64,000 nt of DNA, taken from contig NIVC01002009.1 in the NCBI GenBank assembly GCA_002269645.1, forward strand, positions 31,127 through 95,126, given 5' to 3'. Positions within the stretch are counted from its first letter, which is position 1. Each line of letters begins with the position of its first letter. Source of the stretch: Macrostomum lignano (Eukaryota). The notes under the pieces were generated by a model that ran no database searches, was not told the DNA's origin, and saw nothing but the letters and a program-made list of their open reading frames with translations. Position numbers and translations under genes: made by a program. Positions 37,224-64,000 of this stretch are shown piece by piece.

Positions 37224-37235
37224 TCCTCCCCCTCC
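37224..37235 (-). other. Polypurine tract
   Basis: ggagggggagga on the minus strand, abutting the 3' LTR. Confidence 0.9.
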
Positions 37236-37462
37236 AAGAAAAAGAAGAGGAGAAAGGGGATGTCAAGCAAAAAGCAACGCATGAACAAGCAAGTCTGAAA
37301 AAAAGTTTATTCAAGAAACGACGGCCGAAAAATAACAGAAAAACTTTGACGCGACGCGTGGATATCGCCGGCATTACAAAAAACAAAAACGAAAAAATGA
37401 AAACGGGACACAAACTATTGCGTACGCAAAATTGAAAACGGGCTTAAGAACGCAATTCTACT

Positions 37463-38137: not shown

Positions 38138-38769
38138 CGACGCACGCCACGAAGGTCCTCGGGCTGAATCGACCGGCCCAGCCTCGTTAGGTATGCCTTT
38201 GCATCGACGAGACGCTTAGCCGAGCTGACCTTGCGCTGATTCGGGTCGTCACGGGGGGAGACCTCCTGGACCGTGTCGGCCGGTCGTACTTGCTCGGGGT
38301 CGACACCCGTTAACTCTTCGGTCGCCAAGTCGCGCTGGGCCGTCAGCGGAGTCTGCGAAAGGTGCGGCCCGTCACTCCCCTCCTCCGGGCGCCGCGCGAG
38401 GCCAGGATCCACTAAGAGAGACAGACCCCGGAGCCTCCCCAACAAGGGACCCCCCAACTCACACAGCTCAAAACCCCGCACAGCCAACAACACGCACTCA
38501 AACGCCGCCTGCAGCACCGAAGGCGGGACCCTCCGACACCTCCCGGAGCCACCACCAGAACCTCTCTTCCGCCCATACTGATTGCACAGAAACGACACAG
38601 ACACTGCTAAGAATCTAGACAACTGCTCAGGCACACTCACACCAGCCCCATCAAGAAACCTCGCCACCTCCTGAACCACCAGGCAAGCTCCTTCACTATC
38701 CCCAGCCCTCAACCGCGCCAGCAGCGCACCCCTCAGCCGCCTACACTCAGCAAGCGCAGCCGGAGCCAA
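38038..38769 (-). CDS. Gypsy cargo ORF, unknown helical region that ends with the TatD N-terminal strand
   Basis: 243-aa ORF with the frame open from ~38822. No signal peptide or clear TM segment. Probably fused to the neighbouring ORFs. Confidence 0.55.
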   Translation of the reverse strand: MAPAALAECRRLRGALLARLRAGDSEGACLVVQEVARFLDGAGVSVPEQLSRFLAVSVSFLCNQYGRKRGSGGGSGRCRRVPPSVLQAAFECVLLAVRGFELCELGGPLLGRLRGLSLLVDPGLARRPEEGSDGPHLSQTPLTAQRDLATEELTGVDPEQVRPADTVQEVSPRDDPNQRKVSSAKRLVDAKAYLTRLGRSIQPEDLRGVRRCLAAVNSPYCLRLECPVSDHCCKTDGSCSPWA

Positions 38770-38896
38770 TAACTCGGCTGGGATCTCCGCGTGAACTGGA
38801 GCTTCCCTGCGGCGCTTCCCTTAAGACTAGCCAAAGCTAACCTGACCTGCTCGGGCAACTCAACGTCAGGGGGAGGATTGAAAAAGTAGGCGTACT

Positions 38897-39136
38897 TTAA
38901 CACCCCTTGACACGCTGCCTCCCAACCCGATCGTATACTTCCCGAAACACTGGGTCAGATAAAACGCACATCGCCATCACGTCTCGCTGAGACTCCGGAG
39001 ACTCTACCTCGGCAGGACAGACGCGGGGCCGCTTTGAGTACAGACGACTACACGCTGCCTCAATCTCCGCAGAGTTAGCAGTCCGACCCACGCCTAACAC
39101 GCCATACAAATCAGTCGGTGTCGTTGGCGACGACAT
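38897..39136 (-). CDS. J-domain-like module without HPD; Gypsy cargo
   Basis: DLYGVLGVGRTANSAEIEAA...VLSDPVFREVYDRVG matches both ends of the DnaJ J-domain consensus (DYYEILGV..A...EIK.A...VLSDP..R..YD..G). The HPD position reads KRPR. Acceptor-like ttgcag| lies 7 nt upstream of the ATG. Confidence 0.65.
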   Translation of the reverse strand: MSSPTTPTDLYGVLGVGRTANSAEIEAACSRLYSKRPRVCPAEVESPESQRDVMAMCVLSDPVFREVYDRVGRQRVKGC

Positions 39137-39436
39137 GGTCCTCCTGCAATGATGACATTTAAACCCAATCACTACCTATGCCTTGCGGACTAGCAACTGT
39201 GACCCTGACCTGACCCATCCTATGACATGTTTATTTTACAATACGATTGAGAACGCTTCTTGCCTAGCATACTTTGTAATTTTAATACATTTAATGTTTT
39301 TTACGTGCTTTCCATGCGTTCCATTTTATGATTTTTTTGTGCTTTGGGGTTGTATCATTTTTTTCATTTTAGGTTATTTTAGGCTTTCTACCATAGACAA
39401 CAGCGTGGAGGCATTAATACAAGTGCATATTAAAAA

Positions 39437-42400: not shown

Positions 42401-43410
42401 CTACGCGCGGGCTGACTTACTGGCTTGGCGTTGCCGGTGTCAATCTCATGCGCCATCAAGTGTGACTGTCCCAACTCCGAGCTATCCCTGGCAAAGACAT
42501 CACGATTCCGAGCCATCAGGCGCTCAAACTCGTGCTTCTCATCGCCCGTCAGGCCACATCCTCCCCACTCCTTGACATCGCTGAGGGGGTTCCAGTCGTC
42601 TCGGACACTCTCCACCGAGTTCACCTGCCACCCAGCTGGCTGCTGGGCCGCCACTGGGGAGAACCAACCAATTCGGCTTCCCTTCCTTAATGACAGACTG
42701 CATCCTGACGTGTTCAACACCCTGACAGCCAAGCGACCGTCCCCGTCAGGCATCTGTACCGATCTGGCCACCATCTGCTCGTTACTCACTCTCCTCTCAG
42801 ACTCCACAATGCCTAGGAACTGAACCCCAGAGGGAACCCTTCTCTGCAACCTGACGTGCACCACCTTCTCTTGACCTGCATTGAACTGCTCAGGCTGACT
42901 CAGCACCAGACGGCAAAGACGCGGCTTATCTGCTGATAAGCGAAACGGATACACACAGGATGCAGTCTGCAAGCAATTCCTAGCAAAGTCAATCGCCATC
43001 CCGTGTCTCACGAAAAAGTCAGTGCCCAGAATACATGCCACAGCCAGTTCCTCGACCACAGCGAACTCGTGCAAAAACTCGGTGTCCCCAACAGAAAACT
43101 TCATCGTCACCATTCCATGTACAGCAATCGGTTCCCCATTGGCAGCGAAAACGGAAAAATTCGGCAAATTCGGCGATAAGTCAATGTCGGCTTTTCTAGA
43201 CTTCAGGAAACGGTTGCTTAACAACGACACGGTGGCCCCGCTGTCCAGCAGACATGCAATCGGGGGCCCAAACCTAAACTGTGCATCCACATAGCCCAGT
43301 CCCTGCCGACTCAGCACACTCTGGGACAAGGCCGCGGCCCCCGATGCACCCGGATTCACTGACGCTGGGGCCCGGACGGGTGCCCCGGCCGAGCCCCCAA
43401 TCCGTTTCCC
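39437..43410 (-). CDS. pol: Gypsy Pol polyprotein (protease, RT, RNase H, integrase)
   Basis: Motifs LLDSGAT, YFDD, DTDAS, HHCC (H..GGHLG, C..C), DIVGP...DKGTNF...AESFN. One -1 break at ~39970 falls in a G run; restoring it gives VGDAVLEYSP...WKGPAKVLEKISDLNYRV through to 39437. Confidence 0.96.
43346..43410 (-). other. -1 ribosomal frameshift signal: G GGA AAC plus H-type pseudoknot
   Basis: Slippery heptamer 43410-43404 in gag frame SGN, 6-nt spacer, stem 1 GGGGCTCGG/CCGGGCCCC, stem 2 GCACCCG/CGGGTGC. Pol is in the -1 frame. Confidence 0.85.
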
Positions 43411-44336
43411 GAACCCGACTGGTCCCACCGACGATAGCAGCGGTTGCGCATGTGCCCTGACTGGCCACACTCCCGGCAGACCACTGCATTACGGCACCGA
43501 GCCGTAGTATGCCCTGTCTGCAGGCACCGACCACACTGCCTCTGCTGCTGACTCTGCTCAGGGGCTCGATGCTGCAAGCTCACTTTTGGCTGCTCAGACC
43601 TTGCTGTCGCCATCGGCGCAGTGGGCGCTGCAGCACTTGCTTTTAGCTGAGCCACTTCCGCTTTCAGAGTTGCTATCTCGGCGGCTGCCCTGGACTCCTG
43701 GCTGTTGCCAGCCGCTGCGGCCTGACCCCCCACCATGTGCACAGCTCGCTTACCCTCGGGCTCCATCAGAGCCAACGATGCCCTCACTTGACGCACCCGC
43801 CTAATAGCGTCCTGGAGCGTCTCTGGCGCTTGCAGCAGCACGCTCTCCAGCACCCGGGCTGGCACCCGAATCCCCTTCAAAAACCTGTCTTTCACCAACT
43901 CTTCTCGCTGGGCCGCTGGCAGCATTGGGTACGATTTTCTCATAAGCTCCTTGAGCACGTCTGCATATTCTTCAATGGGCTCGCCATCTTTCTGATTCCT
44001 ACTCTGGAACTCGGTCTTGTAATCTTGAGCAGTCCTATTCTCATCAAACCTAGCTTCTAGCTGCTCAACAAACTCATCATACGGCAAATCATCGGCCAAC
44101 TCAAGATTCGCAACAGCCTTAAAAGCAGTATTAAAGTCAAGCAGACTGAGCAGCGCCTGCTTGCGCTGATCCCCTAGAATATGAGCCGCCTCACAATACC
44201 CTGTGAATTGTTGCATCCAAAGGGCAAAGTCCTGTGTGGGCACGTACTTATTTGGCCTCGGCACCCGCTGTGCCACATTAAGTTCGTTTTGCAGACGCGC
44301 CGTCAGGGCGTCAATCAGATCGTCTAAATTGGCCAT
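43356..44336 (-). CDS. gag: Gypsy Gag with two CCHC zinc knuckles
   Basis: ATG at 44336 (MANLDDLIDAL). Knuckles CGRCLQTGHTTARC and CRECGQSGHMRNRC. Capsid-like RNQKDGEPIEEY...L motif. Confidence 0.93.
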   Translation of the reverse strand: MANLDDLIDALTARLQNELNVAQRVPRPNKYVPTQDFALWMQQFTGYCEAAHILGDQRKQALLSLLDFNTAFKAVANLELADDLPYDEFVEQLEARFDENRTAQDYKTEFQSRNQKDGEPIEEYADVLKELMRKSYPMLPAAQREELVKDRFLKGIRVPARVLESVLLQAPETLQDAIRRVRQVRASLALMEPEGKRAVHMVGGQAAAAGNSQESRAAAEIATLKAEVAQLKASAAAPTAPMATARSEQPKVSLQHRAPEQSQQQRQCGRCLQTGHTTARCRNAVVCRECGQSGHMRNRCYRRWDQSGSGNGLGARPGHPSGPQRQ

Positions 44337-44440
44337 GGCTACAAAAACACAGAGACAACCGAAGCAAACAACACACAAATAAACTAGGCAACACACACAA
44401 CCCTAAACACACGGCAGGACAGCAGGGGAGAGGACCGCTG

Positions 44441-44458
44441 ATCCTGGTCACGGCACCA
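44441..44458 (-). other. Primer-binding site, tRNA-His
   Basis: TGGTGCCGTGACCAGGAT starts 2 nt inside the 5' LTR boundary. It is complementary to the invertebrate tRNA-His 3' end ATCCTGGTCACGGCA-CCA (recalled). Confidence 0.9.
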
Positions 44459-44460
44459 CT

Positions 44461-45163
44461 TGTTGTGTCTCGGCCTAATGGCCGCTGGACGGGTCAAGGT
44501 TCGGGCCCTCCCCGCCTGAGACACCCCTGTCCCAGCCCTCACCCCGGCTATTCCTACCCTGTCTCGCTCGGTTCGGCGAGAGTTCGCCTGACCGAACACC
44601 CTGGGATCGGCGAGAGTTCACCGTTCCCAGGTCCCTGCAGATCCCGGCCCCACGCGGCAACCCAGAAGAACGAAAGCTCGAGCTCACCTCCTCTTGATAT
44701 ATCGAGTTACTAACGAAGCGTTTATTGGCCCGAAGCAGTTATTGGCACGCGAAGGCAGAGGTACGCCGATGAACGCAAAAACAGTAAGAACGAAGCGGAC
44801 ACCAATAGAGAGCCACGTGGAGCGCAGCCCGCTCAGGGCTAGCATTTAAATAATACACAAAAAAGGGGGAAGGGGGGGCAGACTGGAGACGGCGAGCCAA
44901 ACCCTGGGGCCCAGCCGGCTTATCAGCCAGCCAGCCAATACGAGCAGCCCCAGGGTGAGGCGGGCAACGAGGGAGGGGGGGGGGTCGGCACCCAGATTGG
45001 ACAGAGATTGGGCCGGGGCTGGGTGCAAAGGGCTAGGCCAGGGTTGAGACTTACGCCTCTCACAAACCCTGGCCCGGGCGCGAGACGGGGGACGGGGCGG
45101 GGTGGCATGAAAACTGAAAACAAAAGTACGAGTACATACACACTGGAAGGGCGCAGCCCAACA
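44461..45163 (-). repeat. 5' LTR of the Gypsy element
   Basis: 703 bp, TG...CA, direct repeat of 36521-37223. Confidence 0.97.
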
Positions 45164-46713
45164 TGACCAACGAAGTCAGAGCTGATGCAGACACATGTGG
45201 TTGACGTGCTGATGAAATTTGGAGACTTGGCAAGGCTGCACTGAGGCGCAGTGCTGATTGGCGCACAGGGGTGTACTGAATACACTATAGCGCTTATGGG
45301 AAAAATCCGACCTTCTAGCAGAATCGTCGAATATCTCGACGGTCCGGAGGGCTGGGGCGACTTGATTCTTGTTTGAGAATGTGCGCAACAAAAAGCTAGC
45401 CCGTGTTCTCGAATTTCGTGTGCCTGCGTTGCTCCGTTCCGGTGCAGCAAAAAATTGTCAGGGGGGTGGAAATTCCCCCCCCTCTCTTGGTAGTTCTACT
45501 GTTAATATCAAAGTTCATATCAGGCCTAAACAGCTTTGCTCAGCCTGTAAATGAACGCTTCAATTAAGAAACTTTTTTATTGAAAATTATACAATTATAC
45601 GTGTGAAACAAAAAATCTTTAGACAAACAATACATGGCTCTTTGCATTGTGTATCAAATACTTCAAAATCGCTTCTACGTATGCTTACTCGCAAGTAGCC
45701 CATCGCTTATACGCGTACATCTAACATGTACGAGTATCCTACTGAAGGCACCTGGCACAGTGCCGGCTGTCATAAAAACCTTAAATTTTAAATATCCAAT
45801 TAAGTGATATTTTGCACTCCAAATATAACTTGAGAAGCTATACAAGCGTATATGGTCATTCTAAATAGCCGAATTAAACTTTAAATGAAAATGTTGTTTA
45901 TAGCCTTTCTGGTACCAATTTTGAATTCTACTCGTACCATCATCCCGTTCGGTGCACGCGGCACCTCATTTTGCATATGCTTCAATTATTTCAATAATTC
46001 TGCTCTGTTCTCTCTGCACAGCAGCAGTATTTCAAGCTTTCTACATATCTGTTCGATAGCTCGATGCCTCGCAATGGTTTGACGCGATTCAAAACATTTC
46101 TGTCGCATGAGTCTTTTTGTCAGCTTGCTTCTTGCAACGGCCCACACAAGGCTCGGCATGTTTAGAAGCGTCTAGCAGAATGCACTGCCTGTCTCCCATT
46201 GATGAAACAGAGCTCTCTTATTGGTCCGTAGCCTCACAATTGCAACTGTAAAACTATATTTTTATTTAAAAAGAAACAGAAGAAACAACGGCCCCGTCTT
46301 TCCATATAGCGCTTCAAAACCGAGATCGTATTTTCTATTCGAGTTGACCGTGTCAAAGGCAGGTAAGTCTATTGTACGCATGACAGCATGCAGAGTTCCA
46401 AACCTTTTGCTGCCCATTTTTCAACAAGTTATCCGTGTTGAATACTAAGCAAATCTATATAACTAAATCTATCTTTGCTAAAGTCTGGAGGCAGGGCTGG
46501 CGTCTTGTCTCCTGTCTGAGAGGTGAGGAACAGTAAGTGATCCCGTATCCTTGTGGCAGCACAAAAATTGACAGACAAAGGTAAAGTACATGTACGCACC
46601 TGTGTACTGAATCTGATGTGTGGCAAATGCCCCCCCCCATCCAAACCGTCAGAAAACGAAGCTGAACTCTGCCCTTGCCGTGCTGCAAGTCAAGCGAAGC
46701 TCTTTACCCCGCC

Positions 46714-48089
46714 ATGTTCTGCCGCGGGTACCCGATACGCGTCAGCAGGCACATGTCTGTCGCGGGCCGCTACCTGCTGCTGTGCCTGTACCTGTGCCTG
46801 TGGGTGTTTGCCCTCTTCAACTACAGCAGCAGGTGCCGCTACTCAGAGCCGGACGTCTTCATTGAAGACTGGCCAGTCGACGACTCCAGGCTGAAGTCGG
46901 GCCGCTGTTACCTGCGGCGGGACAGCCTCCAGCTGCAGCCAATAGATATGCATAATGCACCTGAGCTGCATCATCTGGAGACTGCTCTGGCTGGTCCCGA
47001 AGTTCCGGCACAGATGAGGTTGCGTCCTGGCGGAAGCTGGGCTCCATCAAACTGTACCCCACTGCAACACGTAGCCGTGATGGTGGCCTTCAGGAATCGG
47101 GACTTTCACTTGCGGCTGCTGCTGAACCGGCTGCATCGGATGCTGAGAAGGCAGCTGATCAAGTACACTGTGTTTGTGGTTGAGCAGGTGAGCAATGCGT
47201 TAAGCAGTAACTTGAGCAGGTGAGCAGTCATTTGAGCAGGCAGCTGATCAAGTACACTGTGTTTGTGGTTGAGCAGGTGAGCAATGAAGTTAAGAATTAA
47301 GAAGTAAGTTCAGCAGTTCAGCAGGTGAGCAGTGAGTTGAGCAGGTAAAGAGGCAGCTTTTAAAATCTTCTCTGCCGCATCACCCAGACAGGACCGGAGC
47401 CCTTCAACCGAGGCATGCTGATAAATGTTGGCGTGGTGGAGGCACTGAAGCTGGCCAGCTTTGACTGCTTCGTCTTCCACGATGTGGACATGATTCCCGA
47501 GCACGATCGGAATGTGTACCTGTGCGATGAGAACGCCAGGCACCTGGCATCCGCCATTGACGAGATGCGGTATCACGTGATGTTCTACAACTACCTCGGC
47601 GCTGTGCTGGGTGAGTAGCTATGCCGATATGTATGGTTTTGACGTGTTAGTAAGCGGGATTAAAAGCAGTTCTCTTCCCATCGGTTGTGTGCAGCGATGA
47701 GCAGCAAGAACTTCTTCCGCATCAACGGCTTCTCCAACGTGTACTGGGGCTGGGGCAACGAGGACGACGACATCAGCGCCCGCACGATGGAGGCCGGCAT
47801 GCTGGTGTCCCGTCCGCCGCCCGCCCTCGGCCGCTACAAGATGGTGCGCCACCCCAAGGCCGTCCGCATCGAGGGCGGGTACACGCACTTTATGGCCTGG
47901 CGGGCCAGGCACTATGAGGACGGGCTGAACGCGCTCAGAAAGAACTCGTACACGATCGTCAGTCGCCAGGCGATGCCTTTGTACACAAACATCTCAGTGC
48001 GGCTGTCGCTCTCCCGGCACCAGATGAAGCAGGAGTGGCTGTCAAAAACAGACTCCGTTTGGTGGTTTCTACGATTCTATTATCCGTAG
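46714..48089 (+). CDS. GT7-family beta-1,4-galactosyltransferase-like, copy 3 (diverged C-terminus)
   Basis: Exons 46714 (or 46753)-47187, 47388-47610 and 47695-48089. Same motifs and intron positions as copies 1 and 2. Confidence 0.9.
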
Positions 48090-50519: not shown

Positions 50520-50878
50520 GAATCTACCCAAACAAATAAACTCTGCTGTTAATAAAATATTCCCTTTAATGTCCATCATACACTGTGGGAACCAGGACTA
50601 GGCATTCGGCAATTTAGCAAAAATAAAGTCACTTTAAGGCTAAGCCTCACTGCCTTGCGTGCGTCCCTATCTTTATCTACTCTCTGTCCGTCTTCTATCT
50701 CTTATCTAAATGTACATTGATTATCGATCGGTCCCTCAAGGCTTAGCATGCCAGGCCCCTTTTTAACCCCTCTTAGCTCTCTAACCCAATTTAGTCGTCT
50801 AACTGCGGCACTTTCAATTCAATTTAACTGGTTTGATCAACTGCTTTATTTCGTTTGTGGAAGGGGGGCAGCCTACAG

Positions 50879-53800
50879 TAGGGATTGCAATCCTGGGATT
50901 GGGGTCCCGAATCCCGGGACAAATTTTTGTTTTTATTTTTACAAAGTGTTGTAATATGAACATAATTGGACTCACAACTAGTTTATTATACTGCGCTAAT
51001 TCCGTTAACCGCCTTCACGTCGCGTGGCGCTTTTTTAAACCCGGCATCACAGATTTAAATGTGAAATTTATTCCAATTTAAATTTTGATATTTGATTTGC
51101 TTCTTTACTACTAGTTATTACTTTTATACTACTTTGTGGCGGCCCAATCAGCACGCAGCCAGCGATTGCGAGTACATCTGCACTGAAACCCCCTGCCCGC
51201 CAGGCTGGGGGGTGGGTGTACTCGGACAGACAGCCAATATGCTAAGTCGGGGGGTTGGCCTTCAATCGTGCCACCTTCTTAGCGCACCTCCCCATGTGAT
51301 CGCGTGCTCGCATCAGTGAACAGCTCGACGGCCGACAACAACAGCAGCCTGCTGCTCATTCCCGATGTGCTGACGGGCCGGCGCTTCCTGGTCGACACGG
51401 GCGTTGAGGTTAGCATCTTCCCTGTCACTGGTACCGATGCACACCTGCGGTCCCCTGGCCCGCCGCTTTACGCAGCCAATGGCAGCCTGATTCGCACCTT
51501 CGGCTCCCGGCAGCTCACGCTCGACCTCGGCATCAAGCGATGCTCCTGGCCGTTCGTCTTGGCCGAAGTGTCGCGCCCGCTAATCGGCGCGGACTTCCTT
51601 CGCCACCACGGCCTGCTGGTGGACCTGCCGCACCGGCGGCTCCTGGACGCCCGCTCGCTCGCCAGCGTGAACCTGCTGGACGGCATTGGGCCTGGCCTGC
51701 AGCTCGCCGCGGCTTCCACCGCAGACCCGTACAGCCAGCTGCTGGCCGAGTTCCCCGCCCTCACCGAGCCCAGTTTCCAGCGGGCTGAGCCACGACACGG
51801 GTGGAGCACCACGTCCCGACGCAGGGCCCGCCGGTCCATGCCCGCCCTCCCGCCTGCCGCCGGACAAGCTGGCGGTGGCCAAGGAGGAGTTCCGGCTCCT
51901 GGAGCAGCTCGGCATCGTTTGCCGGTCAAACAGCCCGTGGTCCTCGCCGCTGCACATGGTGCCCAAGGCCTCGGGTGGCTGGCGTCCCTGTGGCGATTTC
52001 AGGCGGCTCAACGACGCCACGGTGCCCGACCGCTACCCGGTGCCGCACATCCAGGACTTTTCAGCGCGCCTGGCCGGCTGCTCGGTCTTTTCCAAGATCG
52101 ACCTGGTTCGCGGCTACCACCAGGTACCCGTGGCTGCGGCCGACGTGCCCAAGACCGCCGTCATCACCCCGTTCGGCCTCTTCGAGTTCCTGCGAATGCC
52201 GTTCGGGCTCAAGAACGCCGCCCAGGCCTTCCAGCGGTTGGTGGATTTTGTCTGCCAGGATCTCGACTTCGTTTTCGCCTACATTGACGATTTCCTGGTC
52301 GCCAGCCGCAGCCCGCAGCAGCACCTGGAGCACCTGCGCACGCTGTTCTAGCGCCTGGCGGACAACGGTCTGATCATCAATCCGGCGAAGTGCGAGTTCG
52401 GCTGCAGCGAGATCGACTTCCTCGGCCACCAAATCAGCGCCCAGGGAGCCGTGCCGCTGCCCGCCAAAAGTCGACGCTATCGCCAGGTTTGCACCGCCAG
52501 CCACCGTCAAGGGCCTGCAGGAGTTCGCCGGCATGGTGAATTCCTACCACCGCTTCGTGCCGCGGGCCGCCCAGCTGCTGCGCCCCATCCATGCGGCCAC
52601 GGCCGGCAAGGAGAAGCTCGTGAGGTGGACACCCGAGCTGACTGCCGCCTTCGAAGGAGCCAAGCGGGCGCTGGCTTCAACCGCACTGCTGGTGCACCCG
52701 CGGGCGGACGCGCCCATCGCCCTCACTGTCGACGCCTCGGACACCGCCGTCGGCGCAGCGCTCGAGCAGCGGGTGGGCGGCGCGTGGCAGCCGCTCGCCT
52801 TCTTCAGCCGGCAGCTCCGAACGCCCGAGCAGAAGTACAGCGCGTTCGACCGCGAGCTGCTCGCCCTGTACCTGGCGGTCCGGCATTTCCGCTACGCGCT
52901 CGAGGGCCGCGCCTTCACCGCCTTCACGGATCACAAGCCGCTGGTCGCGGCCATGTCTAAGATGTCGGACCCGTGGTCGGCACGACAGCAGCGGCATCTG
53001 GCGTACGTGTCTGAGTTCACCACCGATGTCCAGCACGTCGCGGGCAAGGACAACCCGGTGGCGGACGCGCTGTCCCGCTGCACGATCGCCTCGGTGCAGC
53101 CCCGGCTGCTCCCCGGTGTTGACTTCGCGGCCATGGCGCAGGCGCAGACAGCCGACCCAGCTGCCCAAGAGGACGCTAGCCTTCAGCTCGAGCCGCTGCA
53201 GCTCAGCCCTGGCATCGCCCTGCTGTGCGACATCTCAACCGGCCGGCCGCGCCCGCTGGTGCCTCCGGATTTCCGCCGTGCCGTCTTCGACGCCATCCAC
53301 GGCCTCGCCCACCCGTCAGTCCGCAGCACGCGGCGCCTCGTGGCCGCCAAATTCGTGTGGGCTGGCATGAACCGGGACGTCAGCCGGTGGGCGCGCACTT
53401 GCGTAGCCTGCCAGACGGCCAAGGTGCATCGGCACGTCACCGCCCCGGTGGTCTCTTCGCGTCCCAGACCAGCGCTTCGCCCACGTGCATGTCGACTTGG
53501 TGGGGCCGCTGCCGTCGTCTCAAGGGTTTACGCACTTGCTGACGATCGTTGACCGATTCACCAGGTGGCCGGAGGCGATCCCGATGACTTCCGCCGCAGC
53601 CTGTGCCTCTGCCTTCATCACCCACTGGGTTGCCCGATTTGGCGTGCCGGGTGACCTCACCTCGGACCGCGGCTCGCAGTTCACGTCGCAGCTCTGGTCC
53701 AACATCTCCCGGCTGCTCGGCATACAGCTGCACCGGACTACGGCCTTCCATCCGCAGGCGAACGGGCTGGTCGAGCGGTTCCATCGGCAGCTGAAGGCCG

Positions 53801-54915
53801 CCCTCAGGGCGCGGCTGACAGGACCGGCCTGGGTTAGCGAGCTGCCCTAGGTGCTGCTCGGCATCCGGACGGCGCCCAAGGAGGACCTGCCGGCATCATC
53901 GGCTGAGCTGGTCTACGGAGCGCCTCTGCGTGCCCGGTGAGTGCCTGCAGCCCGGCCCGGCAACCGAAGGCCACGACCAGTTTCTCGTTCGGCTCCGCGA
54001 CGCAGTCCAGACGTTCCGGCCGACACCCACGGCGCATCACGGCTGCCGCCCGGCCGCCTGGCCCGCCGCACTGGATGCCTGCCCGTTCGTGTTCGTCCAG
54101 CGTCCAGCTAAAACTTACTTAAATACGTCACAAAATAATCGCCGGAATTCGGCCAATCCCAGGATCAGAAAAATACAGATTTTTAAGCTTCCGGGTTGGA
54201 ATTTTAAGGCTAAACGTTTTTTGCTACCAACTTTGATTGTAGATCGAGAGTTAATGATCTACTTGCAGATGAAAAACAGCATTATCTTATGATTTTGACG
54301 TATTTAAGTTGTATAAAATTACTAGTATATTAGTAGTTAAGAAGTAAACCAAATATCAAAATTTACATTGCAATAAATTTCACATTAAAATCTGTTATGC
54401 CACAAATTTCAAATGCAATATACATGGATGTGTTTATCGAGTATCGAGTAGGAGTGTATAAAACGAAAAGTATTGATTAAGCTTCTGAAGCTGATCTAAA
54501 TTAACTCGATCCATTGAGACTATCTACTCTGATCTCACTCTCACACAGCATCAAATACTGAGCTCGTAGCAACTAGCAACTACGAGGTACCAACCAACCA
54601 AGCGGAAGCTTATCAACTGACAACTACCAACCAATACCAATTGCCAAGTCTATCCATTAAGTAATTTGAAAAACGAAAACAAAAATTCTGACAGACATTT
54701 AGTTTTCACTCGAGTAACAGTAACGGTTTAAAAAGACGCCACGCGACGTGAGGCAATTAACGGAAATTAGCGCAGTATAATAAACTAGTTTTGGGCCCAA
54801 TTATGTTCATATTACAACACCCTTTTTGTTATAACAAAAATACAAACAAAAATTTTTCCCGAGGATCGGGAAATTTAGATTTTAAATCCCGGGATTGGGA
54901 TTTGGGCAATCCCTG
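50879..54915. mobile_element. ~4-kb TIR element (hAT-like ends) enclosing a Gypsy pol fragment
   Basis: 50879-51041 is inverted at 54727-54915, and 51043-51135 is inverted at 54310-54405. Ends tagggattgc / gcaatccctg. Shares the atcccgggat motif with the adjacent MITE. No clean TSD. Confidence 0.7.
51304..54103 (+). pseudogene. pol: Decayed Gypsy pol (PR-RT-RH-IN), truncated
   Basis: Motifs FLVDTGVEVS, YIDD, VDASD, HVDLVGP and SDRGSQF...NGLVERFH. Several frameshifts and two nonsense codons (52349-52351, 53848-53850). No gag or paired LTRs. Confidence 0.92.
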
Positions 54916-57900
54916 TAACAGACCCGTCCGCCCAACAGAAACCAATCAGAAACTCATTATGAACCCTAACCCTAGCTTTTATTTCGTCATCGGTATTCGG
55001 TACAAGTAGTATGAAGACGCACACGTCTTTTTGCCACCAGTGAACGGGCTTCTTTTTAGACGTGGGTCTTCATACTACTTGGTAAACCTAGTTTTGTACC
55101 GATGAAAAAGAACTTTGAGAAGCTCAAGAAAAATGCAAATCTCTACTTCTCCCATTGTATCTCTTTGTCTGTTCTGTTTCTCTCCTCTCTAACCTCTCTC
55201 TAGTCTCCCCCTCTCCTCTCACTTCTCTCTCGTTTTATCTCTTATCTCCTCTTTTCTCTTCTCCCTCTATTCACTTTAATTTCCTCTCATTTGGGCCGCA
55301 GCCGCAGCCATGAGCTGGATTCTTCTCTAATAGGCCCTCGATCTAAAAAAATTGTCTAAAGTCTACAGCGTAGCAGGGTTATACCCAAGGAAGGATCCTC
55401 TTAGCAATTAGCAATCATCAGCTTAAGTGCTTGGAAAGTCAGGCCAGTTTTGTGGGACATAATACTCGTACTCTCAATCAGATAGTAAACTGGCATAAGA
55501 TACCCCAAGCCTCTTCTCCAACGGGGTTGCAAAGAAAGCTATAGATAAATCATTCCAAAACACTGTACATTGCTACTTCATAAGCCGTATCTCAACTTTT
55601 GGTCAGGGGAAGGGATTGTACACGTAGTGACTTGGAGCTTGCCCCCGCCAAACTTTGTACTGGGCTTGCAATTCGAATGTGCTGTTAAAGAGCTAAATTT
55701 AACACCAAATTCTAATCACGTGACGCCCGTTTATCGGCCAAGCCCTCTCGCCACAACCCCACTTGGAAGGGACGGGTGTGTGTACATTGTATGTACGATT
55801 CTTCCTTCCTTTCCTTTCCTTTCTAACCAGCTTAAGTCAGCCTAACGCCAAAGCAATAGCAATCGCAAGCAAATGCAGATTATGCAAAGCGGTATGCAGC
55901 TTAATCTGATGAATTTTGGTGCAAAAAATGCATTTTTTACCTGAAAAGAACATCGAATGGTTATGAAACTCAAGTAAAATGTTAAATTAACTATATGGAA
56001 CACTGTGCATTGGTTTCAGTGCAAATTCCTAACATTTCCAGTTTAAATAGCCCCGGAACTAACATAAAAGTAAAAAATCAAGTTTTCAGTTTATTATCGA
56101 TAATGTTTTACCCAATGAACCGAATCTCTAGAAATTGCACACAAATATGCCTCGTTTGTGGGAAATCAGGCGTCATTAAAATATTGCCGTCCTATTGCGT
56201 TTTTTGCCTGATTTCAAGCAAAATATTAAAAAATCACTACTCTGATCGATTTCCAATCACTTTTGACACATGAGCACTTGTTGCAGACACTCAAAAACTT
56301 GGTCAATTTAAGCCAGACATTAGTACAACTCGCTGACGTTTCCGCCTTTGATCTATCATTCTTTTAAAATTTTAATCATCAATTTTTCGGGCACCCTATC
56401 AGCCAAAAATCACAAATTATCGATTTCTGATCGATTTATAAAGCCGAAAGCAGCGAAATCAGACGACGGCAATTTAAACCAATATAGTACAGCAACTATG
56501 CTATAGAAATTCGAAATCGGATTATTCGCACCATGTTCTCAAAATTATAATGAGCAATAATGTGAAAGTCATGTGATTTTTTTAAAAATCGATTTTTGTC
56601 GATTTTCTCAGCACTGCAGAATCGTAGGAAAACAAAACTTTAGACACTTGTAGATATTTGCATTGCGCATCCAACTACACTGCTTTGAAGCGCAAACTCA
56701 AGAAGCTTCGTAGGAAAAAGTGGCGAAATAATAAAATGAGGGTCATTTTTTACCCAAAAAACCCACCAAAACTGCATAAAGATGTCGAAATAAATTTAAG
56801 TGCGTGGGATGGGCCTTCGGCCGCCATGGGTAGAAATTATTCACTCGCCCGAGGCCCCGCCAGTCGGCGCCTTCGGCGGCGCCGGCCTCGGCTCGTTCAC
56901 TGGTGGAACTACTAGCAATGTGCCAAGTTTTTCGTTTCTAGGAAAGTCGGAGAGTTTTTGTTTAATCAGTGTACCATCCAATTCGGTCAAAAGTGGCCCC
57001 ATTTTATGTAAAGTAAATTAGAGACACCACAGTTGCAGTCTGCACTGACCTGACCCTCCTGAACACCATTACTACGTATCGTGCAGATAGAGCTGGGTTT
57101 TCAGATGTTTTGACGCAAAAAACGCAAATTATACTACTATCTGAAAATGAAGTAAGTAGTATACAAAAACGCTATCCTAAGCGTGATATATGGCAATATG
57201 TAGTTGTAATAATCCATGTGCTCATATATGTACATTAATTCCATGTACATTAATCCCTATCTATCTCAAATTGGATATGTACATTAATTCCATGTACATT
57301 AATCCATATCTCAAATGTCCATGTCTATCCCCAATTCTATATGTACACTCACATTAATCTACAGTGTCATCCCCAGACGGTCTGAGCGCGCACCAAAATT
57401 ACATGTACAATACTACATGTACGCAGAGGCGAGAATTACTAATCTCATCTACTACCAAATGAGTCAACTAACCGTGTAGCGCACATCATGTATAAGTATT
57501 TACAATGAAGATATATTTACATTTAATCAGTAGCATATTACAGGAATCGAGACATGTACACCATCACCAGCAAATAGAATATACAGAAAATTTTACATTG
57601 TTTTTTCAATAATTTTCTCTTCATAAATGATTTTAAACAGGTCTGACATGCAAAATATGTACAATAGATTTTTACATTGGCAATTTCGCCACACACAATA
57701 CAAAAATGCTCTATGTACATGAATTATATATATACAGCAAATAGATTCTGATAAATACAGCAGTATTACAATGCAAATTATGTACAATAAATAGATTTTA
57801 CTAATTTAATATTGCAAAATGTACATTGAATTGTCAGTCACCATTATTTATAGCCATAAGGCCTGCTGCAGGCCCCGTACACCCGTTTTGTCAGGACGCG

Positions 57901-60110
57901 CTGAAACGTCTTGTCCATATTGATCGTGTGGATGGTACAAGACCCCTTGTCGCGCTTTAATCCGCAAAATATGCCACTGACGCTGGTGTACACTATGGAA
58001 TTAATTATGTTGCATGTTGAATCACCCTTTATCTTCGGCTATATTCAAAATTCAACCCCAAGACTTGTTCGAAAACATCCACCCCTCAGCAGACCCCTAT
58101 AAAGCAAATCGAATTGAACCACTCGTCCCTGTTTCTCTCTGTCACCCTTCTGAATGCTAAGGAATTTCGACCCCTCTCCATTTTCAGTGTACAAACAGAT
58201 CTTTTCACAGCACGGAGCCTATATTAAACCTCATTCAGCAAAACCCCTCTTCTCCAATTACGTCATCCATGCCGCCCCAGTTAGCAAGAAACTAACTTTC
58301 AATGCACACATCAACCCCACGAATCTGAGCAAATCCGAGTCAACCTTCAACTGCATCGACCCAATACCCCTGCATCTGTCAATGTACACAGCCTATGAAT
58401 CAGTGTCTCCTCCGCATACAATTCCGAGACTGAATTCTATAGATGTGTTTTGTCACAGAAATACTTTGGCACTATGGCCAATGCGGTATACTAGAAGTAG
58501 TGAAGTCCACCCGCCCAAAAACGTGCTGCTATGCCAATTCTATCGCTTCCCCTGCCCTCTCACTTCAAGCTTTCAGACTCTATGAAAGTTCGATCTCTCG
58601 AAGCAGGAATGAATCACCCACTGACCTCTCCAAGTTGGAATTCCGTCCAAGTTTATTAAAAGCTAAATTACTATCTCGTAAAAAGCACATTTCATATAAG
58701 GCGAGTTTTCTACAGTTTTTTAATTTTAACGTTAAAAGTTAGACTTTGTGGATAAAAATCAGTAATTTCATCACTGGAAACTTCAACAGTTAATTTACCC
58801 AAATGCCGTTTCAACTTTACTTGAGACGGCTTCGAAGCAGGAATAAATCCCACATGGAAGTCCGCAGCCAGCCCAGCCCAAGAAATAGTTAATGGAGGCT
58901 AAATTACTAGTAATGCAATTTTTTTCATGAAAAACACGAGTTTTCCTCATTTTTCGATTTTAAACGTTAAAATGCTTACTTTATGGATCGAAATCTGTCA
59001 TTTTATCAATAGAAATCATAATTTTAGCTAATAAACCATCAAAAATGCTGTTTTGTCATTCAAATAGGCATGTATATTGCCCAAGAAGCTGGGGAAATAT
59101 TGTATAGACACTGTAAAATTGGGGCTAAAAACACAGTCTGCTATTAAACTTAAAGTTTTCAGCATTCAATTGATTTCGATTACTAAATCATGTCATTGAT
59201 GCTATTTTAAACGTTATTCTCAGTTCTGAAGCTCCCAACAGCCTCTTTTAGATGCACTGAATCGGTTTTGTTGCATACTTTGCATGTTGAATCACCCTTC
59301 AATTCAACGATTCTCCGCTATACATTCTAGCCATATCAAAATTCAACCCAGGACTATTAATGTTCGCTAATATGGAGAGAACAGCACAACACCTAACCCA
59401 GCCTCACCAAGGCAATTCTTTACTACCGCGTAAATGCCATAACTGACTCTCTGTCACTATAACCCCAGGTCCATCCCTAAACATTACGTAAACAGAAGTA
59501 GAAAACTCTGTCTCTCTGATTTTTTGGCTCGAGACAGGGGCTGTCACCTATTACTCTTTGATGGATATTTTAGATGATGGCAAGAGCTTTTCATCGACCA
59601 TTAACTCTTCCCCAAGCCTCTGTCAATCGGATGCTTTGCACACAAGCCCCATTTCCCCCAGGTCATTAAATTGATACAGCGATTTTTGACATCCATTTTC
59701 TCGCAGAGACAGGCGGGCCTTAAAAACCACAGAAGTTATCTTTCATATTTTTCATCTGTATTTAGCTATTATTGGTCAGCTTCTGCCAATTGTTTTCTGG
59801 ATAAACACCGTTTTCTATCCGATTCAAGTCGAAAAGATATGTTGCAAGAGGAAGCGGTCTTCTTCTTTGAGAGACTGTACTCTGACGAAGTCGCCATTTC
59901 ACTCCTGCGAGAGTGCCGGTTGGATGGCTCCGCTCAGATCCAATAAAATACCGCATGAGAAAAGAATTGGCGGGGTAATTTTGACCCCAACTTTTCTATA
60001 CCAAATGCGGAATGGAGTGTTCAATCGTACACTAATCTGGAGAATATAGACCCGGGAAAGAAAATCACGCACAATTCTCGTGCCCCTACCCCACCCTCCC
60101 TCTTGCGGGG

Positions 60111-60117
60111 TATATAA
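60111..60117 (+). promoter_or_regulatory. Candidate TATA box of the pPolB gene
   Basis: gggTATATAAagc lies ~145 nt upstream of ATG 60260 and is followed by a (CAG)n-rich leader. Confidence 0.5.
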
Positions 60118-60259
60118 AGCGGGTGAGAGCTGCTGCAGCCGCATCCGCAGAAGCAGCCAGCAGCAGCAGAAACCACAACAGCAGCATCAGCAACAACAGC
60201 AGCAGCAGCAGCAGCCGCAGCATCAGCAGCATCAACAACCATCTACCTTCCCCATCGAA

Positions 60260-63200
60260 ATGGCATCGAAGCGCTCTGCTGCGGAAGCGGCAATATCGGC
60301 ATTGTGGGGGCAGGCCGGCCCATCGAGGCAGCAGCAGCAGCAGCAGCAGCAGTCACAGCCTCCGGCTGCAAAGCGGAGACAACTAGGTGAGTCTTGCAAG
60401 TCTGTGTAAAAATTTCTTTTTCGTCTTTGTCTTTTACGAAACTCTAAATTCGGGATTATTGAAAAATATAGGGCTGTTCTCTGTAAAACTGATTTTTCAT
60501 CTTTAGAATTCATTTGGCTTTCGCAAACTCAAAATCAGGCTTATTGAAATATTAGGCCCACTGTAAAACTGCTTTTCACCCTTCGCATTCGGAGTTGCTT
60601 TCCAAACTCTAAATTCAGCTTATTGAAATTCGGATTCGGACTTCGGACTGTCTGTCGCAGATTGAAGTAAAGGGAGGAACTGCTTTTGGTTCAGCATTCA
60701 TTTGTATTCGTGTGATTTGCAAACTCTAAATTCATGCTTATTGAAATAATATAGTGCTTTCTTTGAAACTACTGCTTTTCATCTTTAGCATTCATTTTGG
60801 CTTAAAATTTATGAATTTCCTCCTGCCATAGATGTTGAAGTAAAAAGAGGAAACTGGATTTCTCAATTCAGGCCTATTGAAATAACAGAGTTTTAGAGAA
60901 TATCCGCAGCAGCAGCAGTATAGCCAGATAATGCCTGTAGAGGATAGTCATAAAATTCCAGGGGCAGTATATGACTAATCCTTGAACTAGAGAGAAGCAA
61001 AAACAGCAATCCTGCGGCGCGAACGTGACTCAGCGGGGGGGGGGTGGGCAGGCGGCAGTGATAAAATCAACCCCGATTTTTGGGCTCAGCATGATGATGT
61101 AATCACCGCTGCAATTGACAGTAGGGTTTTGGCAGCAATAAAACTTGGCTGCTACAGTGAGGGTTATTAATCAGACAGCTTTAAAAACCCAAAAGCAGCC
61201 GCGCGGTATTGTTGCTGGTGTCAAGGAGGCACAATGGAGACACGTGCTGATAGGGGTTTTCTTAAATTTTACAATGTCTGCTGTGGCAGGATCTGTGTTA
61301 TCAGGGTCATCAATCAAACATTTTTGACAACCTAAAATTCGAAACGGGGGTCAATCAACCCCACATTTCTTTTGTTGCTACGTGTCGGAACGTGCCGAGT
61401 TGGGGTTTTTACAACTCGCCGATTTTTGTTGCTTGGGGTGGGCGATAAAATTGCTGCTGCTGCAGGCAATCAATCAAAAGTTTTTGACAGTTGTAAAATT
61501 CCAAGCGGTCAGAATTTTAGTCACCATGCGCATTTTTATTGCAGATTTGGCTCAATTTCAACCCCCGCCCCAGCCCGACACTGTCGAAGGCGATGGTAAG
61601 GAGTTGATTTTATTTCATGAGTCATTCACTCGCAATTCTAATTTCAAAACCCTCCATTTTTCAGGCTTCATTGCGCGTCTTGGCGGGCGAAAGCCCTGCC
61701 TAAGTTTAGAGCCAAGGGGGTAGAATATGTGGTGTCGTTCACCGATACCACTGATATTCGCGCCACGTTTGGTGGCATAATTTCTGTGCTTTGCGCCGAC
61801 CGAATGTCAACGATTTCATCTCGGCCAAGTTGACTGCCGACAACATGCTGCTCACGGTTAATGTCCCGCCGGTCCGCGCCGCCCGCTTCACTGCAGAGTT
61901 GATATTTAAACATATCAAGAAGGTTCTGCAGTCGGACTCCAGTGTCTTGGGCAACAACTTTAAATTGTTTTTGCTCAAGGCCTGGGTCCCGCGGGGCGGC
62001 TGCGGCAGCCTAGATGCGGCGGAGCGCCACATTCAGGCCAGGCATTCAATTGGGGGACGCAATTATGTCATCATCGCCAACAGCGATAAGCGCTGTCTCA
62101 TTCGAGCGCTGGTGGTGGCCAAGGCCTTTGCCGATCTGCAGGCCAAAGCCATCACTAAGAACACGTGGAAAACAATCAAGGCCGACTCCCCAATGCAGAA
62201 GAAGCTGACTGGGAGCTTCAGATTGCCGCCAAATTGTATTCGGTGAGTAAAAAATGTTCTTGCACATTTTAATTTGCATTTTTATTAATATACAAATGTT
62301 TTAGTCTTTATCAACCATTGCACAGGCCGGGCCTTTCGGGGTTGATGTGCTCACCCAACTGCTGGCAGTTCTGAACGCCCAGTCGCCCGGCCGAGATTTC
62401 GGCGTCCGGGTATACAGTGCTGAGGAGGGCAATACATGCGTGTATGCCCTGCCCGGCCGCGAAGTGCTGAATCTGCACCTAATTGGCGAACACTTTAACG
62501 CGGTGTGCAAGGTGCCGCCATTTTTCGGAGCCCGCCGCTATTGCGACCGCTGCCAGCAACCGTACGACTGCATGTCTAGAGAACACAGGTGCGCCAACAC
62601 CTGCCCTCAGTGCAAAGTGCCCGGCACCGACTGCAAAAGCCTGCAGCGTGACTACAAACGCTGTGCTGATTGTGGCCTCAAGTGCTACAATCAGCAGTGC
62701 TTCGACAACCACCGCCGAAAGAACCGGGCGGGGCGGTCACGCTGCAGCTCAACCCGTGTCTGCCCCAATTGCGGGTATTGCGAAGACCTGAAAGCCGGTC
62801 AAAAGGAGCCGGAGCACAAATGCGGGCACATCAAGTGCCCACTGTGTAAACAGTACGACGAGGCCGGCTCGCATTTGTGCTTCGTCAAGGCTCCCAAAGT
62901 GAAAGCATCAACTATGCCGTACGTGTTCTACGATACGGAAACATACACGGACGAGGAGAAGCAGCATCACGTGCACCTGGTGACTGCCGTCACGTGCTGC
63001 GAGACCTGCTCCGGCCGGGCGTTTCCGCGCGAGACTTGCCGCCTCTGCAATGGCCTGCATAGCGCCGCCAATTGTCTGACTGGCCGCGATCTGGGGGAGG
63101 AATTCTCCAATTGCGTCAGCCACTCAGACTGCGCCTGCCAAATGGCCGATTTTGTGTCTGTGGGCCCGGCCTCGCTGAATGCATTTTTCGCCTGGCTGAG

Positions 63201-64000
63201 CACAGCTTTCCGAGGCGGCGCCATTGTTGTAGCGCATAATGCATCAGGCTACGATTCGTTTCTACTGCTTGGCGCTCTACTCAACGGCCTGGCCAAGAAG
63301 CGGCCACAAGTACTGTTCCAGGGCAGCCGGCTAATGAGCATGACGGTGGATAAATTGGTATTCAAAGATTCGTTAAATTTCATACCAATCCCGCTTGCGC
63401 AATTCCCAAAAGCGCTGGGCTCGCTGACACAAAGCTGGCCAAGGGGACGTTTCCCCACGAGTTCAACAAGCCGGCTAATTGGAACTACGTGGGCTCCTAC
63501 CCGGCCATTGAGTATTATGGCGGCAAAGCAAACAAGGACTATGACTCAATCTGTGCTTGGCTAGCCTCGCGACAGGGCGAGTTGTTCAACTTTAATCGGG
63601 AATATCTCGATTATTGTTTGAGCGACACAGTCCTGCTTCGCGAGGGCTGTATCAAGTACAGGGCAATAATTGGAGACATTTGCGACGGCCTGGAACGTTT
63701 GTACAGGCCAATACGATTGCCAGTTTGGCAATGGCCGTTTTCACCACCCGATTTATGGAGCCCAACTCGGTCGGCGTGATTGCCCGGCAGGCCGACCAGC
63801 AGTCATTCAAGGCGCGCAAGTGGCTGACCTATTTGAATGCCACCGAATTTGGCGGGCGGCTGCGCACCTGCGACTCGACTGACGGCGAGGCGGTCATTCT
63901 TGGCCGCAAGGTGGATGGTTTTGATGAGGCGAGCAACACTGTCTTGCAGTTTCATGGCTGTTTCTACCATGGCTGCGAGCAGTGCATGCCTGATCAGGAT
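60260..64000 (+). CDS. Polinton/Maverick-type protein-primed family B DNA polymerase, intron-containing, several 1-nt frameshifts, incomplete at window edge
   Basis: Motifs NSDKRCLIRALVVAKA, a Cys-rich zinc-finger array, ExoI YVFYDTETY, ExoII AHNASGYDS, FKDSLNF, KGTFPH, ExoIII YCLSDTVLL and Vsr-like KVDGF...FHGCFYHGC. Predicted exons 60260-60386, 61545-61595, 61665-62242 and 62326 onward. Confidence 0.85.

What the first reader, a model, noticed from the sequence alone, without database searches (positions are those of the whole stretch)
60260..64000. Polinton/Maverick-type DNA polymerase gene with spliceosomal introns and a polyQ leader exon
Seen: pPolB motifs and a Vsr-like insert, interrupted by GT-AG introns at 60387-61544, 61596-61664 and 62243-62325. 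The intron at 62243 splits conserved sequence and contains stops. A TATA box and a Q-rich, basic first exon (PAAKRRQ, NLS-like) lie upstream. About five breaks are each repairable by one added base, several in runs, and I saw no nonsense codon in the repaired frame. Known: Polinton pPolB genes are usually intronless, though introns have been reported in some nematode elements. Inference: a host-adapted virus-like element or a domesticated polymerase.
Basis: partly seen in the sequence, partly recalled or inferred. Interest (0 to 1): 0.7.

Follow-up and report, generated by a model that had tools for sequence, protein, structure and literature searches.

The report
Spliced Polinton polymerase in a flatworm
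A multi-copy, virus-like jumping element of the flatworm Macrostomum lignano carries its DNA polymerase gene split by host-style introns shared across the family, although such genes are usually described as intron-free; it is not a domesticated host gene.

Summary
The observation mostly holds. 60260-64000 is the 5' two-thirds of a Polinton/adintovirus-type pPolB (terminal-protein domain, vOTU protease, Cys-rich region, exonuclease, Vsr-like motif); the polymerase motifs lie past the window edge. Homologues name the host as Macrostomum lignano and show a dispersed family with two subfamilies about 60% alike, so this is not a domesticated gene. Intron 2 (61596-61664) is skipped exactly in one contig of an RNA-guess run and not in the DNA run. 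Intron 3 is frame-breaking and splits the vOTU domain, which is one ORF in 48 of 60 relatives; its acceptor may be 62304 rather than 62325. Intron 1 and exon 1 rest on motifs and gene models only, and most of the CAG tract is 5' UTR. The five frame breaks look like assembly errors: 0 stops in 752 codons, and 663/666 identity to a sister model that reads through. An inverted copy of the pPolB 3' end lies upstream (57844-57960). Integrase, capsid genes and TIRs could not be tested. Verdict: new variant of a known kind.

The parts
57844..57960 (-). Inverted copy of the last ~38 codons and stop of the same pPolB family; starts abruptly. Either part of a long left terminal inverted repeat or the tail of a neighbouring truncated copy
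   Evidence: tblastn 81-92% identity to the C-termini of P0001, P0004, P0005, P0040; ORF list
57961..60110 (.). Multi-copy, apparently non-coding spacer and promoter region; no PC4-like or other element gene detected
   Evidence: covered by DNA contigs in every bin; no tblastn hit of the non-pPolB parts of 51 models
60111..60118 (+). TATA box (consensus match only)
   Evidence: the only TATA[AT]A[AT] match in 57900-61600
60135..60259 (+). CAG-rich putative 5' UTR (no ATG before 60260)
60260..60386 (+). Putative coding exon 1: Q8 run and basic PAAKRRQ patch, phase-1 donor
   Evidence: sequence; sister model P0013 carries a Q-run plus PPAAKRGRQL and joins at the same donor; no RNA junction
60387..61544 (+). 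Putative intron 1 (1158 nt, phase 1)
   Evidence: GTGAGT...TTGCAG; models of subfamily B imply a phase-1 acceptor at the homologous place; an RNA-guess contig crosses the acceptor unspliced
61545..61595 (+). Exon 2 (51 nt), linker just before the terminal-protein domain
   Evidence: 16/16 identical to five sister models
61596..61664 (+). Intron 2 (69 nt, phase 1, in frame, stop-free)
   Evidence: exact 69-nt GT..AG joint in run X11 (RNA guess; one contig, depth 12.5, 24 letters on the short side), depth 0 in DNA run X1; six subfamily-A models join here
61665..62242 (+). Exon 3: terminal-protein (little-finger/PAD-like) domain and first half of vOTU with the catalytic Cys; three frame breaks
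62243..62304 (+). Intron 3, phase 0 and frame-breaking; acceptor either 62304 (62 nt) or 62325 (83 nt), both giving the same downstream frame
   Evidence: GC 0.21; stop 9 codons in if retained
62305..64000 (+). Exon 4, open at the window edge: second half of vOTU (His), Cys-rich region, ExoI-III, Vsr-like motif; two frame breaks. Gene expected to end near 65.4 kb

Best explanation
This is one recent copy of a dispersed Polinton/Maverick-type element family of Macrostomum lignano. Its pPolB has the known TP-vOTU-Exo-palm layout. The gene gained spliceosomal introns in its 5' quarter before the family split into subfamilies A and B. Shown: the domains, the multi-copy status and one exact splice joint (intron 2). 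Inferred: the gene is transcribed by host Pol II from the TATA box and spliced by the host spliceosome. Intron 3 must be removed to join the vOTU Cys and His halves and to keep the frame into the exonuclease and polymerase. By analogy with Krupovic et al., vOTU then releases the terminal protein that primes replication of an excised element. The introns most likely persist because the element lives in the nucleus as an integrated template and splicing costs it little; they may also help expression like host introns. The five breaks in this copy are most likely long-read assembly errors.
For: Family and host: 38 longer homologues at 40-98% identity, most named M. lignano DNA polymerase, plus 13 further cluster members. 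All 28 of 28 scanned hit PF03175. The 13 Macrostomum sequences in the tree form one clade with support 1.0 and two subclades. Named relatives are Nematostella, Apostichopus and sea-urchin adintovirus PolB; the best BFVD fold match is an adintovirus polymerase, E 1e-9. Residues 239-372 of sister model P0007 match OTU folds, Z 8.6, rmsd 2.7, 111 aligned. Splicing: exact 69-nt GT..AG joint in X11 and not in X1. Of 24 models with the anchor, 6 A-type join exon 2 to exon 3 as predicted, 14 B-type have the homologous junction, 3 B-type begin at exon 3, and 1 A-type joins there from elsewhere. B-type models show Y, H or D before exon 2, as expected from a phase-1 acceptor, and P0036 joins right after the residue homologous to donor 3. 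Both OTU halves lie in one ORF in 48 of 60 relatives, out of 80 loci examined. Breaks: 0 stops in 752 codons and 663/666 identity to P0003, which reads through all five. Laid contigs differ in length from the window at 4 of the 5 break places among the 12 rows shown, 74 not shown. 6 of 10 listed coding substitutions are synonymous (small n).
Against: The RNA label of X11 is a guess, and it covers 30 of 30 bins like DNA. The intron-2 joint is one contig flagged 'between: not known'. X11 also holds unspliced intron-3 sequence (depth 50.6 at 62249) and a contig that crosses acceptor 1 unspliced (61311-61596). The database models are unverified predictions: many lack a start Met or skip short stretches, so their junctions are weak evidence, and no DNA of subfamily B was seen. 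Intronless homologues and 5 of 10 A-type models favour acceptor 62325, while 30 of 32 B-type models favour the 62304 equivalent. Mononucleotide runs at the breaks (4 of 5 against a 37% background) are only weakly informative. A 1175-codon Gypsy ORF in the same window is unbroken, so errors are not uniform. No integrase, ATPase, capsid gene or TIR was seen for this clade.
Confidence: 0.65

Rival explanations
1. The family is intron-bearing as above, but this copy is a young pseudogene and its five frame breaks are real.
For: Other long ORFs in the window are unbroken. Contigs cannot be tied to this locus, and depth at the break places also includes contigs without the listed difference. Decayed pPolB copies with frameshifts are common among relatives (L033/L034). 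The upstream layout, with an inverted tail and no PC4-like gene, looks rearranged.
Against: Five breaks against only 3 amino-acid differences and no stop relative to P0003 is the reverse of ordinary decay (established expectation). Non-coding places in the stretch show the same kind of length difference. A long-read assembly of this species is reported as error-rich (PMC5730564 passages).
Confidence: 0.2
2. Exon 1 and intron 1 are not used. The mRNA starts or is trans-spliced inside 'intron 1', and translation begins at the ATG at 61526, in frame with exon 2.
For: The ATG at 61526 has a caccATG context with an AG just upstream. Model P0008 starts there. Contigs of all three RNA-guess runs lie over 61304-61596 (table 8).
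Against: Those runs may hold DNA or pre-mRNA. The TATA box, ATG and GTGAGT donor fit well. P0013 uses the same donor. B-type models have a phase-1 acceptor and no Met at that place (P0048), and one B model (P0037) has KRQRL just before it.
Confidence: 0.2
3. The AT-rich inserts are secondary insertions in one lineage of dead copies and are not spliced.
For: Intron 2 is in frame and stop-free. Only one joint was seen, in a run of uncertain type. Published intact Mavericks have intronless core genes.
Against: The joint has exactly the GT-AG length. Coding segments on both sides are conserved across subfamilies about 60% alike, and models of both subfamilies break at the same places.
Confidence: 0.08
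4. A domesticated, host-fixed polymerase gene.
For: It has host-like features: a TATA box, introns and a Q-rich start.
Against: There are dozens of near-identical and diverged copies. Models sit between exons of unrelated host genes (ADAM in P0024 and zinc-finger in P0033 flank it on both sides). X1 lays 1853 contigs on the stretch, spread over all likeness classes.
Confidence: 0.03

Closest known systems
Polinton/Maverick (adintovirus) pPolB with TP-vOTU-Exo-palm layout (Krupovic et al. 2024, PMC11161782; Starrett et al. 2021, PMC8502044; passages seen)
   Same: N-terminal TP-like domain, vOTU with Cys and His present, exonuclease motifs, PF03175 in sister models; 32-36% identity to cnidarian and echinoderm elements
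   Different: Three predicted spliceosomal introns in the TP/vOTU part; long-branch clade so far seen only in M. lignano; other core genes not seen
Intact vertebrate Mavericks (PMC8097293) and nematode Mavericks (bioRxiv 2022.07.12.499685); passages seen
   Same: Dispersed multi-copy elements with pPolB; in one nematode element the pPolB 3' end adjoins the TIR
   Different: Core genes are stated to be intronless; in nematodes introns are reported in cargo genes only
Introner-bearing maverick/polinton-like proviruses of dinoflagellates (PMC11957031; passages seen)
   Same: Spliceosomal introns inside integrated polinton-like elements
   Different: Those come from young mobile introners in protists. 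Here the positions look shared by subfamilies about 60% alike in an animal; an introner origin was not tested
Integrase-linked pPolB1 Polintons of M. lignano listed in Jeong et al. 2023 (PMC10748475, table S3)
   Same: Same host: 78 rows on NIVC01 contigs, which PMC5730564 identifies as the M. lignano assembly
   Different: 47 of the 70 rows seen are 1100 aa or longer, more than this clade's last exon (~1024+ codons) can give, so they are probably other, intron-poor families; 5 of 70 fall at 1010-1060 aa. Introns in pPolB are not discussed
Adenovirus E2B and P-element transposase (recalled, no call)
   Same: A spliced mRNA for a replication or transposition enzyme in which one intron decides between a short and a full product
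   Different: Analogy only; regulated splicing is not shown here

Membership tests
Polinton/Maverick pPolB protein | PF03175 type-B protein-primed polymerase with ExoI-III and PolA-C motifs | tested here: met
   ExoI-III in the window; PF03175 E 2e-4 on a window fragment, below the curated cut-off; E 3e-41 in sister P0039; PolA-C only in sister models because they lie past the window edge
Polinton/Maverick pPolB protein | N-terminal vOTU protease domain with catalytic Cys and His | tested here: met
   OTU fold Z 8.6, rmsd 2.7, 111 aligned on sister model P0007; Cys at 62094 and His at 62491
Polinton/Maverick pPolB protein | Terminal-protein (little-finger/PAD-like) domain before vOTU | tested here: inconclusive
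   model residues 115-238 match PDB 4irc_A 239-341 (polymerase-DNA complex; its identity as Pol IV little finger is recalled) at only Z 5.2; a profile of relatives hits the window at E 2e-5
Polinton/Maverick element | rve-type integrase gene within the element | tested here: inconclusive
   none in 54.9-64 kb; none in 28 of 51 gene models scanned; DNA beyond 64000 and the genome are not held. The nearby integrases belong to Gypsy elements
Polinton/Maverick element | Packaging ATPase, protease, major and minor capsid genes | not testable with these tools
   the window ends inside pPolB; no genome held
Polinton/Maverick element | [quoted passage not shown] | tested here: inconclusive
   the inverted pPolB tail at 57844-57960 fits a long TIR but the partner arm is outside the window; no clear terminal motif found
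Polinton/Maverick element | Dispersed multi-copy insertions | tested here: met
Canonical intact Mavericks as described for vertebrates and nematodes | Intronless core ORFs | tested here: not met
   frame-breaking intron 3 and spliced intron 2
Vsr-bearing pPolB2 subgroup (Jeong et al. 2023) | Vsr domain within a pPolB2-class enzyme | tested here: inconclusive
   Vsr-like motif at 63947 (motif recalled; no Pfam hit); homologue P0081 is named a very-short-patch endonuclease by its source; the paper lists 748 pPolB1 and 0 pPolB2 for flatworms; class not tested against their sequences
Domesticated single-copy host gene | Single fixed locus | tested here: not met

The most novel reading that the evidence does not exclude
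The clade is a stripped-down, still-amplifying self-synthesising element. Its long inverted termini include the pPolB 3' end, it lacks its own integrase and capsid genes, and it uses host splicing as a switch: retaining intron 3 gives a short terminal-protein product with half a vOTU domain (stop 9 codons into the intron), while removing it gives the full polymerase, possibly only in stem or germ cells.
Probability: 0.12. Interest if true: 0.78.

Novelty: new variant of a known kind. Interest (0 to 1): 0.5.

Why it matters
Surveys define intact Polintons by continuous ORFs (pPolB of at least 900 aa in Jeong et al.; intronless ORFs in Barreat and Katzourakis). An intron-bearing lineage would therefore be scored as truncated or decayed, and its TP/vOTU part missed. 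Old introns in the replicase imply long nuclear residence and dependence on the host spliceosome, which bears on whether such elements behave as viruses or as transposons. M. lignano is a transgenic model with rich RNA data, so splicing and its cell-type control can be checked directly. The claim is tempered because this scan has unchecked notes of intron-split pPolBs in other genomes, so the trait is probably recurrent rather than unique.

Tried and rejected
No whole genome is held, so the rest of the gene, the TIR partner and other core genes were out of reach. No RNA holder was listed on record; the RNA labels are guesses. No joint for intron 1 or intron 3 was listed in the 4 of 24 runs laid. 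This is not evidence against splicing: contigs drop variants, and the repeat at 60129-60364 was skipped by the tool. Summed contig depth was not used as a copy number. Pfam on 11 raw window fragments gave only one weak PF03175 hit. Viral-contig scans found no relative with P0005 or A2 and five distant loci with A1, which were not analysed further. The metagenome scan gave 80 distant loci (best segments 24-38%) and no close flatworm relative. Of the 12 loci with split OTU halves, only L033 was read (L034 is 99.9% identical): it is decayed, with no intron at the intron-3 site; the other 10 were not read. A search for shorter homologues of the PC4-like region found none, and none was found beside the metagenomic relatives; an Atlas look-up gave PC4 clusters at 0.87-0.89, a lead only. 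Foldseek on PDB gave no E below 0.001. Small Cys-rich ORFs at 55986-57805 have no Pfam hit. Scan notes by place and by sequence were empty. Literature searches found no paper describing introns in an animal Polinton pPolB or Polintons of M. lignano. Subscription journals, Repbase and bioRxiv supplements were not searchable and may bear on this.
Full report
What is in the sequence. The three GT-AG pairs are at the stated coordinates. Intron GC is 0.41, 0.33 and 0.25 against 0.54-0.64 in the exons, and the lowest 60-nt GC window in 61545-64000 (0.18) lies in intron 3. Donor-like GTRAG words alone are not enriched (5 seen, 7.9 expected). A TATA box sits at 60111 and the first ATG at 60260, so the long CAG tract (60135-60240) is untranslated in this model; coding exon 1 holds a Q8 run and PAAKRRQ. 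The window contains the OTU Cys and His, ExoI-III and a Vsr-like motif (the Vsr label is recalled; a homologue is so named by its source), but not PolA-C. The last exon is at least about 1024 codons by column count, so the gene should end near 65.4 kb.

What it is. A search with the exon-4 fragment returned 38 longer proteins at 40-98% identity, most named Macrostomum lignano DNA-directed DNA polymerase; cluster look-ups added 13. All 28 scanned hit PF03175. In a tree of 68 core regions, the 13 Macrostomum sequences form one long-branch clade (support 1.0) with two subclades: A, which includes this copy's sisters, and B, about 55-63% identical to the window. The sister group is three unnamed ENA/Logan proteins. 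Named relatives at 32-36% are from Nematostella, Apostichopus and a sea-urchin adintovirus. A model of sister protein P0007 matches OTU proteases (Z 8.6, rmsd 2.7, 111 residues) and, weakly, part of a polymerase-DNA complex (4irc_A, Z 5.2); its best viral fold match is an adintovirus polymerase. This is the TP-vOTU-Exo-palm layout of Krupovic et al. (PMC11161782, passages). Gene models place family members between exons of unrelated host genes, and DNA run X1 lays 1853 contigs of mixed likeness on all 30 bins. The element is dispersed and multi-copy, not domesticated.

Are the introns real? Intron 2: one contig of run X11 (RNA by guess) skips exactly 69 nt with GT..AG ends, while DNA run X1 shows depth 0 for that joint. 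Limits: it is a single contig, flagged 'between: not known', and X11 also covers intronic and intergenic bins. The intron is in frame and stop-free, so RNA and gene models are its only support. Of 24 models with the anchor, 6 A-type join as predicted, 14 B-type have the homologous junction, 3 begin at exon 3 and 1 joins there from elsewhere. Intron 3: retention gives a stop after 9 codons, and it lies between the vOTU Cys and His. In metagenomic relatives both OTU halves are in one ORF in 48 of 60 loci that have both, out of 80 examined; the split case that I read was decay, with no intron at this site. B-type model P0036 joins right after the residue homologous to the donor, which suggests the same donor in subfamily B. 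The acceptor is uncertain. Five of 10 A-type models and the loop length of intronless homologues fit 62325. But 30 of 32 B-type models keep seven more residues, and the window's 62305-62322 resembles them more than intronic sequence does (1 of 1235 windows, 29 of 20000 shuffles). I slightly prefer 62304. Intron 1: B-type models have Y, H or D before exon 2, as a phase-1 acceptor would give; P0013 carries a Q-run with PPAAKRGRQL up to the same donor; P0037 has KRQRL before exon 2. Against it, X11 has a contig that crosses the acceptor unspliced, and an in-frame ATG at 61526 offers another start. All these models are unverified predictions.

The breaks. Five frame changes lie near 61684, 61801, 62210, 63416 and 63696. 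Between them there are 0 stops in 752 codons, and 663 of 666 compared residues equal sister model P0003, which reads through all five. Laid contigs differ in length from the window at four of the five places among the 12 rows shown (74 not shown), and at several non-coding places. Five breaks with only three substitutions fits sequencing error better than decay (inference). However, contigs cannot be assigned to this locus and other long ORFs in the window are intact, so I put error at about 0.7.

Surroundings. The last 38 codons of the same pPolB lie inverted at 57844-57960. Model P0008 shows tail-to-tail pPolB pieces and a PC4-like gene at another locus. B-type models share an upstream stretch that I read by eye as the antisense of that PC4-like gene (inference, not tested by a tool). 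No such gene was found upstream in this window. So this copy either has a long left TIR that includes the pPolB end and has lost the inner genes, or it abuts a truncated neighbour. Jeong et al. (PMC10748475; abstract, sections 8 and 15, passages, and parts 251 and 253 of 266 of the supplement) list 78 integrase-linked pPolB ORFs on NIVC01 contigs, the M. lignano assembly (PMC5730564, passages). Of the 70 rows seen, 47 are 1100 aa or longer, probably other families. Whether this clade is among the rest is unknown. A second accession with 350 occurrences is recalled as another M. lignano assembly but was not confirmed by a call.

How it most likely works. Shown: the domain anatomy, the multi-copy state and one splice joint. 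Inferred: Pol II transcription from the TATA box, host splicing of three 5' introns, a TP-vOTU-polymerase polyprotein, vOTU cleavage and protein-primed copying as proposed for Polintons. The basic patch is a plausible nuclear localisation signal, and similar patches occur at this position in intronless homologues, so exon 1 need not be host-derived. The CAG runs fit microsatellite growth in a Q-rich genome. A regulated intron 3, by analogy with the P element and adenovirus E2B (recalled), is not excluded but has no positive evidence.

Comparison with what is known. Intact vertebrate Mavericks are reported as intronless (PMC8097293, passages). Nematode core genes are intronless and introns occur in cargo (bioRxiv 2022.07.12.499685, passages). 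Introner-derived introns occur in dinoflagellate polinton-like proviruses (PMC11957031, passages). OTU-bearing PolB defines adintoviruses (PMC8502044, passages). Passages of PMC12220804, bioRxiv 2024.01.15.575659, PMC12801592 and PMC6431247 added nothing on this point. Searches found no description of introns in an animal Polinton pPolB; the library lacks most subscription papers and Repbase. Seven unchecked notes of this scan report intron-split pPolBs in other genomes; they are leads, not support, and they lowered my estimate of uniqueness.

Verdict. It works like a Polinton pPolB and is one by protein features. Membership of the whole element in the Polintons (integrase, capsid genes, TIR) is untested. 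It is a new variant of a known kind; interest 0.5.

Noticed in passing
window 57844-57960 (-): Inverted last ~38 codons of the same pPolB family; an X11 contig joins 57919 to 61349 on opposite strands, which suggests internally deleted copies.
   Followed up: partly
window 36774-44746 (-): Gypsy-type retroelement with unbroken gag (43356-44402) and pol (39961-43488) ORFs and two extra ORFs, one TatD DNase-like (37463-38215, Pfam E 6e-6, just under the cut-off). It is nested between inverted repeats at 35191-35477 and 45164-45454.
   Followed up: partly
window 50876-54915: Element with inverted ends (50946-51113 / 54331-54820; termini look hAT-like by recall) that holds a decayed, GC-rich Gypsy pol fragment with stops and frameshifts.
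   Followed up: no
window 57108-57350: A short stretch shared with an abundant contig in all three RNA-guess runs, with the same 255-nt loose end at 57108; possibly a repeat piece inside a highly expressed transcript.
   Followed up: no
window 22114-23305, 29718-30909, 46738-47944: Three near-identical copies (95-100%) of a segment with a glycosyltransferase family 7 exon; tandem duplication or misassembly.
   Followed up: no
window 780-3023 (-), 12284-13396 (+), 19504-21087 (+): Host genes: a very Q-rich ORF ending in a P-loop motif, a protein kinase (MAK/ICK-like by recall) and TFIIF-alpha, each as a long open frame.
   Followed up: no
database proteins P0008, P0007 and B-type models: Other loci of the family carry a PC4-like gene head-to-head with pPolB and further small ORFs; P0008 shows tail-to-tail pPolB pieces.
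   Followed up: partly
L048 1-18603: A metagenomic Polinton with a continuous 1388-aa pPolB and ORFs that look like integrase, two minor capsid, major capsid, protease and ATPase genes (read by eye, not scanned).
   Followed up: no
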